Virus record (IMG/VR): IMGVR_UViG_3300047444_000174
DNA from: an uncultured virus (IMG/VR IMGVR_UViG_3300047444_000174)
Lineage: Duplodnaviria; Heunggongvirae; Uroviricota; Caudoviricetes
Length of the DNA stretch: 64,000 nucleotides
Direction: 5' to 3' (one strand)
The translations under genes and the position numbers were made by a program. The notes beneath the pieces are model-generated. The model searched no databases. It was given only the letters and a program-made list of their open reading frames with translations, and was not told the DNA's origin. Positions within the stretch are counted from its first letter, which is position 1. Each line of letters starts with the position of its first letter. This document shows positions 51,772-61,571 of this stretch, piece by piece.

Positions 51772-51844
51772 CGATAGCATTTGCTCTCGCAAAGCGCAAG
51801 CACTTGCTCGCAAAACAATAGGATTTGCTATCACAGCAAATGCT
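51772..51844. promoter_or_regulatory. OR operators (four AGCANNTGCT-type palindromes) and pR
   Basis: AGCATTTGCT 51776, AGCACTTGCT 51799, AGGATTTGCT 51820, AGCAAATGCT 51835; minus-strand TTGCGC-17-TATCGT. Confidence 0.75.
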
Positions 51845-51866
51845 AGTTTTCGGGTTTAATTTGGCC

Positions 51867-52664
51867 ATGGATATCCACGCACATCGCCGGAACAGGCTCC
51901 AAGAGCTTGTCGACAAAGAGGCAGACGGAACGGCCGCAGAATTTGCACGGAAACATAATCTGGACGCAACGCGGATCAGGCAGCTCTTAAGCGCTACCTA
52001 TCGCAACGGAAGAGGCTTTGGAGAGGGGGCAGCAAGAAATCTCGAGACGGCACTCGGGCTTGACCACCCTTACTTCGACTTGGGGCTTGAGAGCGCTATT
52101 GCCTCTCAGCATATTTCCAATATTTCCGATGCATCAATCAGCGCACTAAACACGGGCAACATTGGTCAATCAAAAAGCGCAGTCGCCGTTAGTCTGGATG
52201 AAGGAGACCTACCCAATCCAACATCCGATGAGTTCGCTTTCGTGCCCCAATTAGATATCGCCGCGGCCTGCGGCAACGGCCGGTTTGAAGACCATGTGGT
52301 AGTCAAGGGTGGAATGGCGTTCAAGCGCTCGAAGCTGCGCGAACTGGGCGTTCCAGAAAACGCCGCGAGACTTATTGTCGCCGCCGGCGGGAGCATGTGG
52401 CCAAAGATTCAGGACGGACGTGACGTCCTCATAAATACCGCAGATATCGAGCCCGAGGATGGCAAGGTCTACGCTATATGTATGCCGCATGATGGGCTCG
52501 TATTGAAGCGCCTTGTATGGGAATATCACCCGCAGGTCGGCGCGGAAGTTTGGGTCATCAAGAGCGACAATCCGGACAAGACCACCTTCCCCGACAAGAT
52601 TCTGCCGCCCGACGATCGGACGCGCATCGCTGGACGTGCGGTTTGGACGGACAGCGTGCTTTAG
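51867..52664 (+). CDS. cI: CI repressor (HTH plus S24 autoprotease)
   Basis: ACG cleavage site, GGSM.P (Ser), LKRL (Lys), SDN. Confidence 0.92.
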   Translation: MDIHAHRRNRLQELVDKEADGTAAEFARKHNLDATRIRQLLSATYRNGRGFGEGAARNLETALGLDHPYFDLGLESAIASQHISNISDASISALNTGNIGQSKSAVAVSLDEGDLPNPTSDEFAFVPQLDIAAACGNGRFEDHVVVKGGMAFKRSKLRELGVPENAARLIVAAGGSMWPKIQDGRDVLINTADIEPEDGKVYAICMPHDGLVLKRLVWEYHPQVGAEVWVIKSDNPDKTTFPDKILPPDDRTRIAGRAVWTDSVL

Positions 52665-52767: not shown

Positions 52768-52986
52768 ATGAAGGAACTGCTGGACGTCTTGGCTGGCGTT
52801 GGTTCCGCTCTGAACGCATTCGGCTCTGTGCCGCAGTATGACGTTCCCCGCAGGGGCGATCAGGCGCGCGATTTCGCCTTGATCGGAGGGGATATTCGTC
52901 GCGCTACAGATCGAGTCGAAAAAACAGCACACAAAGCACTGACAGAGCGCAATGGGACGACAAACAACCGCACAGGTGAAAGGTAA
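52768..52986 (+). CDS. Immunity-region small protein
   Basis: GGAG RBS; TATAAT at 52722. Confidence 0.6.
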   Translation: MKELLDVLAGVGSALNAFGSVPQYDVPRRGDQARDFALIGGDIRRATDRVEKTAHKALTERNGTTNNRTGER

Positions 52987-53353
52987 GGATCACAGCCTGA
53001 CCGTTTCTCATCATGAAACGGATGCGCCGCTCTTGCCGATGGTGCAGATCGAGCGCCTCAAAGAGATCCTTCCCGATAAAGTAGATTGGGTTTTTGAGCA
53101 GGCCAAGGCAGAGGGTGATTTCCGCCGCAGTGAAACGAGCCGCGTGAACTGGTTCAAGTTCATTGATCGTATGGCCGGCATCGTGTCCGGGTTTTTAATT
53201 GGGGTCATCGGATTAGGCGTCGCCGCCTATCTGTCAATGCATGGCCATGACACCGTGGCCGGCATAATCGGCGGAACAACCGTCGTGGGCTTAGTGTCCG
53301 TGTTTGTGATTGGCCAGATTAAAGCCCCATCTCAACGCCAGAACAATAAGTAA
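52952..53353 (+). CDS. DUF2335-like two-TM membrane protein
   Basis: PL.P...ERL.EI.P...D..F..A..E..FR followed by two TM helices. Confidence 0.7.
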   Translation: MGRQTTAQVKGKDHSLTVSHHETDAPLLPMVQIERLKEILPDKVDWVFEQAKAEGDFRRSETSRVNWFKFIDRMAGIVSGFLIGVIGLGVAAYLSMHGHDTVAGIIGGTTVVGLVSVFVIGQIKAPSQRQNNK

Positions 53354-53356
53354 TCG

Positions 53357-53380
53357 AAGCCCAGCCCCGCTGGGCTTTTT
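53357..53380 (+). terminator. Rho-independent terminator
   Basis: AAGCCCAGC-ccc-GCTGGGCTT followed by T-run. Confidence 0.7.
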
Positions 53381-53580
53381 CATTTCCGCCTCTGCGCGAA
53401 CCCCTCCCTCCACAACGTAGCGCCGACTGACGTCAATAGCGCCAGGTCGTCTCCCTCGAACCTCTCCCAGTTCTCTGCCAGCCAGCCCGCGAAGCCTGCG
53501 CACGCCTCATCAAGCGGCACGTCAGCTCGGCCTTCGATGTTCAGCCGCTCGAAGATGGTGATTACGTCTGCTGGCGTCAT
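53380..53580 (-). CDS. Small hypothetical protein
   Basis: AGGAG RBS. Confidence 0.6.
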   Translation of the reverse strand: MTPADVITIFERLNIEGRADVPLDEACAGFAGWLAENWERFEGDDLALLTSVGATLWREGFAQRRK

Positions 53581-53648
53581 ATCTAGCTCCTATCCAACTC
53601 CCAGTCTAGCCCCGTAGGCAGCGATAAAAAAATTTATCAACAAGCGAT

Positions 53649-53686
53649 AGCTTTTGCTTGCGTTAAACGAGAGCGTTTGCTATTGT
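53649..53686 (+). promoter_or_regulatory. pL promoter with two OL operators
   Basis: TTGCGT-17-TATTGT; AGCTTTTGCT 53649 and AGCGTTTGCT 53672 match the OR consensus. Confidence 0.78.
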
Positions 53687-53737
53687 TCATCCATCGAAGC
53701 AAGCAACACCGCACCAACCACTAACCGGAGAGCGAGC

Positions 53738-53965
53738 ATGAGCCAGAACGCACGTACGCAGGGGATCGCAGCATTCAATGATGTAGCGAAGCCGGTGTAC
53801 CAGAATCCGTACGCTTTCTCTGCAGACCCGAATTCCGACTATGAGCAGTTTCGCCTTGGATATTTCGTGGCGCGGCACGAAGGCCATCAAAGCGTTATCC
53901 AAAACATGCGCGGCGCGGAACTGCCAGCCGGATACATCAAAGGGTCGCAGCGTTACACCGCATAA
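53738..53965 (+). CDS. First pL gene, hypothetical
   Basis: GGAG RBS; NPY...F..GY motif. Confidence 0.7.
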   Translation: MSQNARTQGIAAFNDVAKPVYQNPYAFSADPNSDYEQFRLGYFVARHEGHQSVIQNMRGAELPAGYIKGSQRYTA

Positions 53966-54006
53966 AGCTCAAAACCGCCGCAGAGCACCGCGGCAACAGG
54001 AAGGAA

Positions 54007-54109
54007 GGTCGAAACCCGGGCCAAACCTAGTGCATGAGTGCACACGCTATAGGCGAGTACCTAACAGTACGCACCCGGGTCTGAGCGTAACGCGCTCACT
54101 GACGAGACC
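54007..54109 (+). ncRNA. Hammerhead ribozyme, type II
   Basis: GGTC-GAAA-CCCGGG...CCCGGG-TC-TGAGCG/CGCTCA-CTGACGA-GACC: full catalytic core and all three stems. Confidence 0.9.
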
Positions 54110-54164
54110 GTGAATAACCGCAGTAGAGGAACACAGGCGCACGGCGTCGCCTGGTGGGGCAAGA

Positions 54165-54175
54165 GATCTTTAACA
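54165..54175 (+). promoter_or_regulatory. boxA-like antitermination element
   Basis: GATCTTTAACA versus consensus GCTCTTTAACA, in the pL leader. Confidence 0.55.
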
Positions 54176-54177
54176 AC

Positions 54178-54857
54178 GTAGTGGTTTGAGTTTGATCAGA
54201 GCTGGCGGCTTGTGTCCGTACGCGGAACATGACGAGCAGTTGGCCATGATAGTCGCCAGCCCTGATCACATTCGAACCACTGCAACAGAAGGCATACCAG
54301 TAATGGCGGGGCCAACGCGCTACCCCGGAAAAGATCGGCGCCTATCAGTGATCCGCCTGGTCGACAGATTCGACTATAGAACGGATCGCTGATTGATAAC
54401 CGCCGCACCTAGGCCGGAGCCAGCATAGCTGGGAGTAGTCGGATTGGTGCGGCAAAGCAGTTTTTCGTGAATGGCGTTGTGCGGCGTGGAGTGACACGCA
54501 CAGTAGGCGTAGAAGGCGTTGCCCGCTTGCGGCCAATGTGCATCGCATGCGGGGCGTTGGAGCCGAAGACACCCGGGTGGAGCTTAAGTGCTTTGAAGCT
54601 GCGGGGCATACAGAGCTGGGCTGGTGACCCAGACACAGCGCCATTCACGAAGAGCTGCAGCATTGAGGCGAGAGCATTGAACTCCCTGCATAGCTGAGTA
54701 TCTGCTGTAGCGAACCGCGAGACCGCGTTCTCGTGCAGTAACTCCGGCTCATAGGCTCCCTGCACAGTACCAGTGCTCTTTCTTGAATGCTGAAGCTTCT
54801 AGCGATTCTCCTTACGGTTGCCGATTCTCGCGAGTCGGTAGCGATAAGGGGAATTGC
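54178..54857 (+). ncRNA. Tandem array of helix-closed structured RNA domains
   Basis: 33-bp, 12-bp, 8-bp, 25-bp, about 22-bp and long-hairpin stems with + strand G.U pairs; no credible ORF. Confidence 0.7.
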
Positions 54858-54909
54858 GCATCGGCGTATTGACGCCTGTTAGTACAACGAATTGGATCAG
54901 GAGACTGAA

Positions 54910-55122
54910 ATGAGCAAATGGTTCGAAGTGAACGTTACGACTTGGAAGCGGGTGCTCGTCGAAGTCGAGGATGACGAGACCGCAGAAGACGCCGTTGATA
55001 TCGCTGTCAACGAGCATTTGATCGGCAAAGACGGCGAAGCATCTGCGCATAGCGACGAACCGCTGGATGGCCTGAAGCTGGCAAGCGCACGGCGCCATGC
55101 AGACGAAGTAATGACGCTTTAG
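54910..55122 (+). CDS. Small acidic protein
   Basis: AGGAG RBS; V.VE....AEDA. Confidence 0.7.
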   Translation: MSKWFEVNVTTWKRVLVEVEDDETAEDAVDIAVNEHLIGKDGEASAHSDEPLDGLKLASARRHADEVMTL

Positions 55123-55274
55123 GAGCCCACTATGTTCTACAGCGACTATGGAATCCGTGTCTACCAGAGACGCGCATCCAACTACATTTTGCGTTTCGCG
55201 GCGCACTTCGACCAGTACCTGAATGCGCGATTTGTCCGCTCGATCGGCTACGACGAAATCTGCTGGTGCTGACC

Positions 55275-61548: not shown

Positions 61549-61571
61549 GCCCGCTTCGGCGGGGCTTTTTT
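61549..61571 (+). terminator. Rho-independent terminator
   Basis: CCCGC-TTCG-GCGGG hairpin followed by T6. Confidence 0.7.

What the first reader, a model, noticed from the sequence alone, without database searches (positions are those of the whole stretch)
53966..54900. About 0.9 kb non-coding array of tandem helix-closed RNA domains behind the ribozyme (candidate phage small-RNA system)
After the hammerhead and a boxA-like site come back-to-back domains: 54178-210/54251-283 (31 of 33 bp paired, 4 G.U); 54344-55/54382-93; 54402-09/54446-53; 54457-81/54634-58 (25 of 25 bp, 3 G.U, enclosing about 150 nt of branched, partly tRNA-like arms); 54658-79/54771-92; and a long hairpin 54802-857. The wobble pairs work only on the transcribed strand, which points to selection on RNA. 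The units share architecture but not sequence. Inference: an immediate-early polycistronic RNA cassette cut by the ribozyme and RNase III/P into separate RNAs that could serve as anti-defence decoys, antisense regulators (C4/P4 CI-like) or an RNA-only antiterminator (HK022 put-like). I recognise no N gene here.
Basis: partly seen in the sequence, partly recalled or inferred. Interest (0 to 1): 0.8.

Follow-up and report, generated by a model that had tools for sequence, protein, structure and literature searches.

The report
Phage early-operon leader RNA with boxA
A soil-bacterium phage carries about 0.95 kb of folded, non-coding RNA in front of its early genes: a self-cutting ribozyme, a copy of the host's ribosomal-RNA anti-stop signal (boxA) and several helix-closed domains, part of an uncatalogued RNA family common in Burkholderia-type phages.

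Summary
All five helices and the hairpin sit at the stated coordinates with the stated pair counts. The + strand folds far better than shuffles (z -8.6; - strand -5.7). No ORF in the gap hits Pfam or PHROGs.

The stretch is the untranslated leader of the PL-type early-left operon of a Paraburkholderia lambdoid (pro)phage. It reads, in order:
- a hammerhead of type II topology;
- an invariant hairpin;
- a boxA (54165-54176) identical to the rrn-leader boxA of host-family genomes;
- a 33-bp hairpin;
- a conserved two-domain RNA (D2 + module C);
- a 25-bp "clamp", a 22-bp helix and a terminal hairpin.

Module C covaries strongly (94.9% of cells paired against 28-42% in slid controls). Its motif occurs in 107 IMG/VR stretches and in named Burkholderia phages. 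No Rfam family matched this stretch or the relatives' loci that I scanned. Domains are swapped or lost among about 12 relatives, with breakpoints at domain borders.

The interior of the 25-bp-closed domain folds no better than chance. Nothing in the window is tRNA-like.

Best reading: rrn-style, N-independent antitermination plus a ribozyme- and RNase III-punctuated leader. The role of the conserved domain is unknown. The scan met a related core before, on other DNA (e1-4301103).

The parts
53356..53378 (+). Intrinsic-terminator-like hairpin plus T run. It ends the repressor and membrane-protein transcript just upstream (context).
   Evidence: 10-bp stem, then TTCATTT. The repressor (S24 / phrog_4) and the membrane moron are identified.
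53640..53737 (+). PL-type promoter/operator region and a conserved CA-rich leader with a Shine-Dalgarno site. The promoter hexamers are inferred, not called by the scan.
   Evidence: Window 53358-53751 is 79% identical to L001 1590-1996. L001 shows TTGACA-17-TTTAAT at the same place by eye. The consensus scan found no promoter in the window.
53738..53965 (+). 75-aa ORF in the position of lambda N. It has no family and is replaced by other ORFs in relatives.
   Evidence: no relative in viral contigs. L001 has a 40-aa ORF here and L002 has ORFs of 101 and 70 aa.
53975..53995 (+). Small hairpin, homologous to stem III of the compact hammerhead of relative L003. It is probably a remnant.
   Evidence: Window 53965-53998 matches L001 2104-2137. 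The L003 hammerhead sequence is seen.
54007..54109 (+). Hammerhead-type ribozyme in type II topology (stem II open). Layout: GGUC, GAAA, stem III 54014-20/54074-80 with a 53-nt insert, GUC with predicted cut after C54081, stem I 54082-98, CUGACGA, GACC.
   Evidence: Threaded by hand on the sequence: every core nucleotide is present. Rfam gives only 17.4-19.6 bits to Hammerhead_3, whose gathering score is 48.5.
54120..54164 (+). Invariant core with the hairpin 54134-39/54148-53.
   Evidence: 85-95% identical over 53-61 aligned bases in all core-bearing relatives. Unique in the window.
54165..54176 (+). boxA (GAUCUUUAACAA).
   Evidence: Letter-for-letter the motif about 210 nt before 16S in two genomes of the host family, and 11 of 12 in the two Paraburkholderia genomes that carry related prophages. 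It is the only exact copy in the window. boxA-like variants sit at the same offset (+43 to +46) in 11 of 14 core-bearing loci; by eye the other three carry more divergent variants there.
54178..54283 (+). Long hairpin B1 (31 of 33 bp), an RNase III-type helix.
   Evidence: Its arms are kept in L002, L007 and L052 while the interior is 39, about 125 or about 150 nt. DNA contigs of two runs replace the interior 54207-54254.
54314..54399 (+). Domain D2: a multi-helix domain that includes 54344-55/54382-93 and a conserved loop AAAGAUC.
   Evidence: Alignment A3 of 9 sequences: 9 of 12 predicted pairs change on both sides. D2 plus C folds at z -3.64.
54400..54456 (+). Module C: a hairpin with an invariant asymmetric internal loop (5' AG, 3' GWGUAG).
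   Evidence: A2, 75 sequences (57 distinct): 14 of 18 pairs change on both sides; 94.9% of cells paired against 28-42% when slid; 0 of 500 shuffles reach it. Model R1 scores 57.3 bits here, but this sequence helped to build the model.
54457..54658 (+). Clamp domain: a 25-bp closing helix with a conserved base (GCAGUUUU / GARARYUGC) around a variable 152-nt interior.
   Evidence: 11 instances in 10 loci all close this way. Positions 9-22 show 2-4 canonical pair types each; G.U cells 35 against A.C cells 6. The interior is not significantly folded.
54658..54792 (+). Domain E: a 22-position closing helix around two direct copies of YUCCCUGCAWAG.
   Evidence: 20 of 22 paired. The motif recurs in 8 loci, inside or after the clamp. 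No consensus fold was obtained.
54802..54857 (+). Terminal hairpin.
   Evidence: Alignment A4 of 5 sequences: 22 pairs, three G.U pairs invariant, 3 pairs with changes on both sides.
54879..54909 (+). UUAGUAC motif, Shine-Dalgarno site (GGAG, 54900-03) and the start of the next gene (ATG at 54910).
   Evidence: UUAGUA precedes whichever gene follows the array: it was found in 7 of the 14 core-bearing entries (two of them are one prophage) and seen by eye.

Best explanation
The stretch is the untranslated, modular leader of the early-left (PL-type) operon of a Paraburkholderia lambdoid phage. It works mainly in cis.

Proposed sequence of events:
1. After a small, variable first ORF, a hammerhead of type II topology cuts the transcript. 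This is inferred from the sequence.
2. The new 5' end starts with an invariant hairpin and, 11 nt later, a boxA identical to that of the host family's rRNA leaders.
3. As in rrn operons, boxA should recruit NusB-S10 and the other Nus factors to the polymerase. That would make it resistant to Rho, and perhaps to terminators, without any lambda-N-like protein. The polymerase could then cross about 750 nt of untranslated RNA and reach the recombination genes. The identity of the motif is shown; binding and antitermination are inferred.
4. Behind boxA lie four helices of 20-33 bp, which are RNase III-type substrates. They flank a conserved two-domain RNA (D2 + module C) whose invariant internal loop looks like a docking site for an unknown factor.
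5. Cleavage of those helices would release this roughly 170-nt RNA and separate the leader from the downstream mRNA. This step is inferred.

The interiors of the clamp and of domain E are variable filler or cargo that is exchanged by recombination at conserved domain borders.
For: Position:
- The stretch lies after a CI/S24 repressor, a moron and a terminator, and before P22 gp17-like, NinD-like, RecT and YqaJ genes.

boxA:
- The match to the rrn-leader motif is 12 of 12 in 2 genomes of the host family and 11 of 12 in 2 Paraburkholderia genomes.
- It is the only exact copy in 64 kb.
- boxA-like variants keep the same offset in 11 of 14 core-bearing loci.
- A boxA-like motif lies within 520 nt upstream of module C in 57 of 74 distinct loci.

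Ribozyme, hairpin, boxA triad:
- The same order recurs with different sequences in relative L003, which carries two boxAs.

RNA-level selection:
- Covariation is seen in module C, the clamp, D2 and P1 + C.
- G.U pairs far outnumber A.C, and the + strand folds better than the - strand.

Processing:
- There are 4 long helices against 0 in shuffles.
- One soil metatranscriptome contig of 171 nt covers 54297-54463, between hairpin B1 and the clamp. This is a weak hint.

Background from the literature:
- boxA recruits NusB/E to build the lambda-N and rrn antitermination complexes (passages of PMC12360218; abstract of PMC4807359).
Against: - No binding, cleavage or read-through was measured.
- boxA can also promote Rho termination in other contexts (PMC12360218).
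- The hammerhead fails Rfam's threshold (17.4-19.6 bits against 48.5), and its stem III carries an unusual 53-nt insert.
- No second boxA or nut-like site was found behind the rightward operon.
- Terminator-like sites in the downstream operon are no more frequent than chance (11 found, 8.9 expected). Only one, at 61550, looks convincing.
- The RNA contigs may be DNA carry-over and cannot show RNA ends.
- This account leaves the conserved D2 + C domain without a demonstrated role.
Confidence: 0.5

Rival explanations
1. Trans-acting stable RNAs. The array would be a polycistronic precursor. The ribozyme and RNase III would cut it into separate small RNAs, above all the roughly 170-nt D2 + C RNA. 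These would act on host or defence proteins as decoys or sponges, or act as antisense regulators.
For: - Module C has an invariant internal loop inside covarying stems, which is typical of a factor-binding site.
- Its motif is found in 107 IMG/VR stretches and in cultured Burkholderia phages.
- There is one copy per prophage and none elsewhere in the 5 genomes searched.
- A relative carries a tRNA-model match (44.4 bits) inside its clamp.
- A 171-nt RNA-library contig matches the D2 + C interval.
Against: - No target, partner or discrete RNA has been shown.
- The variable interiors are not significantly folded.
- Nothing in the window is tRNA-like.
- The fixed order and the fixed position ahead of the first early genes look more like a cis element.
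- This reading does not exclude the best explanation.
Confidence: 0.2
2. RNA-made antiterminator. The conserved two-hairpin unit (P1 or D2, plus module C) would bind the polymerase or the Nus complex directly. It would play the part that protein N plays in lambda, as put RNA does in HK022, with boxA as a co-signal.
For: - These phages have no recognisable N.
- The unit consists of two adjacent stem-loops of about 85 nt with invariant loop letters, and 18 of 26 pairs change on both sides.
- It lies downstream of the early promoter and of a boxA-like motif in 57 of 74 loci.
- put is about 70 nt, has two stem-loops, lies behind PL and PR, and needs no protein (passages of PMC9378689).
Against: - There is only one copy per phage and none behind the rightward operon.
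- In the window it lies about 250 nt after boxA and behind an RNase III-type hairpin that could cut it loose.
- In L003 it precedes the core.
- put works without boxA.
- No comparison with put itself could be run.
Confidence: 0.15
3. Largely filler. Only the ribozyme, boxA and a few RNase III hairpins would matter. The rest would be debris of mosaic recombination, kept base-paired simply so that Rho cannot load on a long untranslated stretch.
For: - The interiors of the clamp and of domain E fold no better than chance.
- Interiors are replaced wholesale among relatives.
- A remnant of a hammerhead stem sits at 53975-53995.
Against: - Module C, D2 and P1 keep invariant unpaired letters and covarying stems across dozens of phages.
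- The order of the domains is conserved.
Confidence: 0.1
4. Not RNA at all: a protein-coding stretch, or a DNA-level element such as an origin, a transposon-end-like inverted repeat or a recombination site.
For: - ORFs of 68-118 aa exist on both strands.
- The conserved clamp ends resemble terminal inverted repeats.
- Phage Magia is annotated with small minus-strand ORFs over its own leader.
Against: - The two - strand ORFs that I tested (99 and 118 aa) hit no family; the 68- and 76-aa + strand ORFs were not scanned.
- Compensatory changes keep the helices, not reading frames.
- G.U pairs far outnumber A.C.
- The - strand folds worse than the + strand.
Confidence: 0.03

Closest known systems
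rRNA-operon leader: boxA with NusB/S10/NusA/NusG/SuhB antitermination, and RNase III processing stems
   Same: - The boxA has the same letters as the host family's rrn leaders, and a hairpin precedes it, as boxB precedes boxA in rrn.
- A long untranslated, structured RNA follows.
- Long-range helices close the domains.
- A relative has a tRNA-like insert between such helices.
   Different: - It lies in a phage early operon behind a repressor-controlled promoter.
- It is preceded by a ribozyme.
- What follows is not rRNA.
- No boxC-like block was recognised by eye after boxA.
- Nus binding is untested.
Lambda nutL and the N leader (boxA, boxB, an RNase III-sensitive hairpin, then the N start); recalled from the literature, not read here
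   Same: - The same place in the genome map: after the repressor and rex-like genes, and before the recombination genes.
- boxA plus a hairpin, then a large RNase III-type hairpin ahead of the first downstream gene.
   Different: - No N-like arginine-rich protein is present.
- The hairpin comes before boxA, not after.
- The leader is four times longer and is modular.
- No matching site was found behind the rightward operon.
HK022 put RNA
   Same: - A lambdoid phage without N.
- A folded RNA of two stem-loops downstream of the early promoter (PMC9378689, passages; alignment A6).
   Different: - One copy, not two.
- It is accompanied by boxA.
- It sits hundreds of nt from the promoter.
- No sequence or fold comparison with put was possible.
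Type II hammerheads in prophage operons (Perreault et al. 2011, PMC3088659; passages read)
   Same: - All core letters are present, stem II is open, and the setting is a prophage intergenic region.
- That paper reports a hammerhead in an intergenic region of Burkholderia phage Bcep176, a phage that also carries module C.
   Different: - It scores below Rfam's cut-off.
- Stem III has a 53-nt insert.
- I saw no loop I to 3'-tail pseudoknot by eye.
- The coupling to a hairpin and boxA just downstream is not described in the passages I read.
Large ornate phage-associated RNAs (GOLLD, ROOL); recalled
   Same: A large structured non-coding RNA in a (pro)phage, with tRNA-like neighbours in some relatives.
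   Different: - No Rfam match at E up to 10.
- This RNA is a string of separately closed domains with filler, not one ornate fold.

Membership tests
boxA / Nus-dependent antitermination site (rrn or nut type) | A boxA sequence matching the host's own rrn-leader boxA | tested here: met
   54165-54176 matches 12 of 12 the motif about 210 nt before 16S in two host-family genomes, and 11 of 12 in two Paraburkholderia genomes. It is the only exact copy in the window.
boxA / Nus-dependent antitermination site (rrn or nut type) | Lies in untranslated nascent RNA downstream of an early promoter, and is conserved in place among relatives | tested here: met
   It lies in the ORF-free gap. boxA-like variants sit at +43 to +46 from the core in 11 of 14 loci, and within 520 nt upstream of module C in 57 of 74 loci.
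boxA / Nus-dependent antitermination site (rrn or nut type) | Binds NusB-S10 and makes the polymerase resistant to termination | not testable with these tools
   Needs gel shifts and terminator read-through reporters.
Lambda-type N/nut system | An arginine-rich N protein encoded next to the site, with a boxB that it binds | tested here: not met
   The neighbouring small ORFs have no N-like family. The ORF in the N position differs in every relative.
Hammerhead ribozyme (type II) | Conserved core (CUGANGA, GAAA, the A15.1-U16.1 pair, a cleavage triplet) enclosed by three stems | tested here: met
   Threaded by hand on the sequence: CUGACGA 54099-105, GAAA 54011-14, A54014-U54080, GUC 54079-81, and stems I, II and III.
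Hammerhead ribozyme (type II) | Reaches the Rfam gathering score | tested here: not met
   Only Hammerhead_3 matched, at 17.4 and 19.6 bits against 48.5. No hit to a type II model.
Hammerhead ribozyme (type II) | Self-cleavage | not testable with these tools
   Needs in vitro transcription.
HK022 put RNA | Copies behind both early promoters | tested here: not met
   Model R1 finds one copy in the 64-kb window.
HK022 put RNA | Two stem-loops of about 70 nt acting on the polymerase without proteins | tested here: inconclusive
   A two-hairpin unit is supported in relatives. In the window D2 replaces the first hairpin. Activity is untested.
RNase III processing sites | Near-perfect helices of about two turns or more | tested here: met
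   Helices of 33, 25 and 22 positions plus the terminal hairpin.
RNase III processing sites | Cleavage in vivo, lost in an rnc mutant | not testable with these tools
   The only data are contigs from an RNA library, which cannot show RNA ends.
tRNA or tRNA-like element | Match to a tRNA model | tested here: not met
   Window: ARAGORN finds 0 genes and Rfam gives no tRNA hit at E up to 10. Relative L003 does match (RF00005, 44.4 bits against 29).
Catalogued phage RNAs (C4 antisense, GOLLD, ROOL and the rest of Rfam 15) | Any Rfam match | tested here: not met
   0 hits at gathering score in 64 kb. Only chance-level hits appear in evalue mode. Nothing relevant in 12 related loci.

The most novel reading that the evidence does not exclude
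Burkholderiaceae lambdoid phages may run their early operons with a protein-free nut system. A host-type boxA would be re-supplied after each ribozyme cut. A conserved two-domain RNA (P1 or D2, plus module C) would stand in for lambda N by docking on the Nus-modified polymerase. Around it, a conserved clamp helix would act as a cassette holder into which cargo RNAs, including a tRNA look-alike, are swapped between phages.
Probability: 0.2. Interest if true: 0.85.

Novelty: new variant of a known kind. Interest (0 to 1): 0.66.

Why it matters
Lambda-type phages are the textbook case of antitermination, yet only two solutions are known: protein N on nut, and put RNA.

This would be a third design. 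It combines a host rRNA-type boxA with no N protein, a self-cleaving ribozyme, and a conserved folded RNA that no catalogue lists. The RNA's motif occurs in 107 IMG/VR viral-contig stretches and in cultured Burkholderia phages.

It is directly testable with reporters. It would explain why these phages have a gap of 0.4-1.2 kb that is either left "empty" or annotated with doubtful small ORFs. It would also add a well-supported new RNA family (module C with P1 or D2) whose invariant internal loop points to an unknown binding partner.

Tried and rejected
**Searches that found nothing**
- No whole genome is held for the window, so there was no own-genome search and no relatives search.
- blastn of 53581-55130 against 50,697 phage records gave no match.
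- The 75-aa ORF has no relative in viral contigs.
- Rfam gave nothing at gathering score and only chance-level miRNA or lncRNA hits otherwise.
- The pattern for the core, with up to 3 mismatches, was found in 1 of 401 genomes sampled from the host family, and that one was the query genome itself.

**Scan matches set aside**
- 5 of the 7 matches in genome contigs and 1 of the 6 in metagenome contigs were chance hits with unrelated flanks.
- 3 of the 80 fetched module-C loci (L084, L091, L102) looked like coding chance hits. I left them out of A2.

**Host rRNA search**
- RF00177 found no 16S in the two draft host genomes, and a guessed boxA pattern found nothing. The 16S primer site then located the rrn leaders.

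**Ideas tested and dropped**
- tRNA-like arms in the window: rejected.
- Pairing of the D2 loop AAAGAUC with boxA GAUCUUU: 7 complementary letters in the window, but position 2 of boxA varies in relatives without a matching change. Dropped.
- A consensus fold for domain E: none obtained.
- I compared module C by eye with a kink-turn, a sarcin-ricin motif and 16S rRNA helix 23. None fits, and this was not tested further.
- Likeness to integron attC sites, to transposon-like inverted repeats and to CRISPR repeats was considered and rejected, on strand asymmetry and covariation.

**RNA libraries**
- One soil contig lies on 54297-54463 and one seawater contig on 54255-54347. The shares are small, the contigs cannot show transcription or RNA ends, and parts without cover say nothing.
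Full report
**What is there.**
The window is a lambdoid temperate phage or prophage assembled from a rhizosphere metagenome. No whole genome is held for it. Its map around the finding is as follows.
- Primase, helicase and small regulator genes run on the - strand.
- A CI-type S24 repressor (51825-52664) and a membrane moron (52952-53353) run on the + strand.
- These end in a terminator-like hairpin at 53356-53378.
- An AT-rich control region follows, then a 75-aa ORF of no known family (53738-53965).
- Next comes the 945-nt gap.
- After the gap come small + strand genes: a NinD-like gene, a P22 gp17-like superinfection-exclusion gene, an HNH gene, RecT and a YqaJ exonuclease.

The gap therefore lies in the early-left (PL-type) operon, where lambda has nutL and N.

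**Check of the observation.**
- 31 of 33 pairs with 4 G.U;
- 12 of 12;
- 8 of 8;
- 25 of 25 with 3 G.U;
- 20 of 22;
- and the 54802-57 hairpin.

Other measures agree.
- The five helices hold 11 G.U pairs against 1 A.C.
- Four helices of at least 22 positions occur, against none in 30 shuffles.
- The + strand folds at -414.4 kcal/mol (z -8.6) and the - strand at -371.6 (z -5.7).
- Rfam has no match at gathering score anywhere in the window. ARAGORN finds no tRNA.

Two details of the reading fail.
- The 152-nt interior of the 25-bp-closed domain is no more stable than shuffles (z +0.87).
- Nothing in the window is tRNA-like. The interior of the next domain is also unremarkable (z -0.89).

The excess of structure comes from the long closing helices and from the D2 + C segment (z -3.64).

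**Relatives.**
- The downstream 70-aa gene led to two IMG/VR loci.
- A 20-nt pattern from the one block they share with the window found 9 viral stretches.
- The same pattern found 7 genome stretches. Two are real: prophages of Paraburkholderia elongata 5N and Paraburkholderia sp. BCC1885. Five are chance hits.
- A longer pattern found 6 metagenome stretches. Five are real, three of them new variants, and one is a chance hit.
- Together with loci found later, 14 core-bearing entries were tallied. Some are near-duplicates, so I count about 12 distinct variants.
- The core is rare: 1 of 401 genomes sampled from the host family held it, and that was the query genome itself.

**Anatomy.**
Read along the + strand:
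1. A small hairpin at 53975-53995 resembles stem III of a compact hammerhead in relative L003.
2. A hammerhead core in type II topology lies at 54007-54109: GGUC, GAAA, a 7-bp stem III with a 53-nt insert, GUC with the cut predicted after C54081, stem I, CUGACGA and GACC. I threaded it by hand on the sequence. Rfam gives only 17.4-19.6 bits to a permuted model.
3. An invariant block at 54120-54164 holds the hairpin 54134-53.
4. boxA lies at 54165-54176.
5. Hairpin B1 lies at 54178-54283.
6. Domain D2 lies at 54314-54399.
7. Module C lies at 54400-54456.
8. The clamp domain lies at 54457-54658.
9. Domain E lies at 54658-54792.
10. The terminal hairpin lies at 54802-57.
11. UUAGUAC, the Shine-Dalgarno site and the ATG at 54910 close the stretch.

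The order core, boxA, (B1), (D2), C, clamp, terminal hairpin, UUAGUA is kept wherever the parts are present.

**boxA.**
I located the rRNA leaders of the two Paraburkholderia host genomes and of two other genomes of the same family through the 16S primer site.
- About 210-227 nt before 16S they carry GAUCUUUAACAAUU (two genomes) or GAUCUUUAAAAAUU (the two Paraburkholderia genomes).
- The window's motif matches the first 12 of 12 and the second 11 of 12.
- It is the only exact copy in 64 kb. The two 2-mismatch matches elsewhere are what chance predicts.

**Covariation.**
- *Clamp.* 11 instances in 10 loci all fold as a long closing helix. The first 8 pairs are conserved. Positions 9-22 each show 2-4 canonical pair types. 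G.U cells number 35 against 6 A.C.
- *Module C.* A pattern of its internal loop found 107 stretches in IMG/VR, of which 80 were fetched.
  - With 6 of my relatives this gave 78 distinct sequences. I dropped 3 as coding chance hits.
  - The alignment A2 has 75 rows, 57 of them distinct.
  - 14 of 18 predicted pairs change on both sides.
  - 94.9% of cells pair, against 28-42% with the partners slid. There are 140 double-change cells against 20-36, and 0 of 500 shuffles reach any measure.
  - The search pattern fixed the inner CCGG pairs and the loop, but not the outer and apical helices, which carry the covariation.
- *D2.* 9 sequences; 9 of 12 pairs change on both sides.
- *P1 + C.* I gave 27 of the 52 distinct P1-type sequences, chosen for diversity; 18 of 26 pairs change on both sides.
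- *Terminal hairpin.* 5 sequences; mostly conserved, with three invariant G.U pairs.
- *B1.* The arms are kept in 4 loci while the interior is 39, about 125 or about 150 nt. I saw only one clear compensatory pair.
- *Domain E.* No consensus fold was obtained.

**A wider family.**
In the 74 distinct module-C loci:
- 57 have a boxA-like motif within 520 nt upstream;
- 44 have the clamp start within 30 nt downstream;
- 57 carry a hairpin P1 with the loop GGCGNNGUA in place of D2, and 6 carry D2.

In a typical Burkholderia-type locus the order is promoter, hairpin, boxA, about 330 nt of folded RNA, UUAGUA, Shine-Dalgarno site and first ORF.

The same leader occurs in 14 named Burkholderia phage records, among them phi644-2, Magia, BgManors32 and, for module C, Bcep176.
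- In Magia it follows the C2-like immunity repressor and is annotated with two small minus-strand ORFs.
- In phi644-2 it lies in an unannotated gap of about 840 nt.

Six such loci gave no relevant Rfam hit. Model R1 finds one copy per prophage and none elsewhere in 5 genomes, though only 150 of roughly 9,000 first-look candidates per genome were scored.

**Mosaicism.**
- The window and L001 share the promoter and leader, the core with boxA and the terminal hairpin. They differ in between.
- L002 has the array behind two ORFs.
- L003 has module C ahead of the core and carries two boxAs.
- DNA contigs of two other rhizosphere runs join 53736 or 53688 directly to 54117, so they lack the ORF and the hammerhead. 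They also replace 54207-54254, and they diverge at 54163-65, 54457, 54803-11 and 54850. These are all domain borders.

**How it probably works.**
The best-anchored element is boxA. It follows a hairpin, as in rrn leaders, and comes immediately after a ribozyme. The same triad recurs with other sequences in L003.

I infer the following steps:
- The hammerhead severs the translated first cistron.
- The new 5' end loads the Nus factors through boxA.
- The modified polymerase crosses the long untranslated stretch and the early operon without Rho termination.
- The helices of 20-33 bp are cut by RNase III. This would free the D2 + C RNA and detach the downstream mRNA, as RNase III does in the lambda N leader, in T7 early RNA and in rRNA precursors (all recalled).

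Only the sequence identities, the helices and their covariation are shown. Binding, cleavage and read-through are not. The invariant loop of module C implies a partner, which I could not name.

**Against this reading.**
- boxA can also promote Rho termination.
- No nut-like site lies behind the rightward operon.
- Terminator-like sites downstream are at chance level, with one good candidate at 61550.
- The hammerhead is below Rfam's threshold.

**Literature.**
Four searches found no description of this leader family: prophage + hammerhead + tRNA-like + boxA; Burkholderia + phage + antitermination + boxA; phi644-2 / Bcep176 / noncoding RNA; and Burkholderia + prophage + sRNA.

Perreault et al. 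2011 (passages read) report type II hammerheads in prophages and a slow A6C hammerhead variant in an intergenic region of Bcep176. Their supplementary figures were not opened, so I cannot say whether it is the same region.

**Earlier notes of this scan.**
- One note (e1-4301103) on other DNA shares 9 of 59 words with 54100-54300. It describes a covarying core of about 110 nt in 14 viruses, with a hammerhead ahead in 5 of 15, and a later check found that part of it fell.
- Others describe ribozyme-boxA-hairpin leaders (e1-992383) and a folded RNA array behind a prophage pL (e1-543415).
- I used them as leads only.

**Verdict.**
This is a real, + strand, non-coding, modular leader RNA. It is a new variant of phage nut-type control, with an uncatalogued conserved RNA domain. 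Its cis antitermination and processing role is likely, and its cargo and partner are unknown.

Noticed in passing
L003 1851-1936: Inside the clamp helix of this relative sits a match to the Rfam tRNA model (44.4 bits against a 29-bit cut-off). It has a 19-nt insert in the D arm, and its acceptor stem continues into the clamp. ARAGORN does not call it.
   Followed up: partly
L001 2154-2297: In place of the window's hammerhead, this relative has an element of about 145 nt ending in a T-arm-like hairpin, a 7-bp acceptor-like stem and ACCA. L011 has a similar ...CCACCA end before its core. Neither is called by ARAGORN or by Rfam at E up to 1.
   Followed up: partly
window 53966-54000; L001 2100-2137; L003 about 1110-1180: L003 has a compact, complete hammerhead whose stem III is homologous to the small hairpin just after the window's 75-aa ORF and to a half-ribozyme (GGUCGAAAC plus stem) in L001. 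This suggests ribozymes broken and replaced by recombination.
   Followed up: partly
window 54329-54336 against 54165-54171: The conserved D2 loop AAAGAUC is the exact complement of the first seven letters of boxA. In relatives, boxA position 2 varies (A, C or U) with no matching change in the loop, so pairing is not supported.
   Followed up: yes
window 54683-54695 and 54757-54769; 7 other loci: Domain E carries two direct copies of YUCCCUGCAWAG on either side of a variable centre. The domain lies inside the clamp in some phages and after it in others. I have no explanation.
   Followed up: partly
L135 (phage Magia) 1933-2342: Two small minus-strand hypothetical genes (gp58, gp59) are annotated across the conserved leader RNA. 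They are probably not genes.
   Followed up: no
phage records OK094664.1 and OP650936.1: A Shewanella phage record and a 'Hujiaoplasma' phage record, both 47,902 bases long, hold a stretch 78% identical to the Burkholderia-type leader. The host labels look odd for this family.
   Followed up: no
L088 about 1440-1560: Here the flanks of module C (clamp start and P1 side) are in reverse-complement arrangement relative to the central 29 nt. This may be a local inversion or an assembly effect.
   Followed up: no
L002 4372-4700: A second ORF-free, helix-rich stretch follows the next gene in this relative. Part of it is shared with L007 and L021.
   Followed up: no
window 53380-53580 (-): A 66-aa minus-strand ORF between the moron's terminator and the early promoter is conserved in L001 (70 aa) and weakly matches phrog_21839. 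It diverges from the PL-type promoter.
   Followed up: no
L032, L043, L066, L079 (just after module C): In these Burkholderia-type loci the clamp is replaced by a sequence containing CUGAUGAG, possibly another hammerhead directly behind module C.
   Followed up: no
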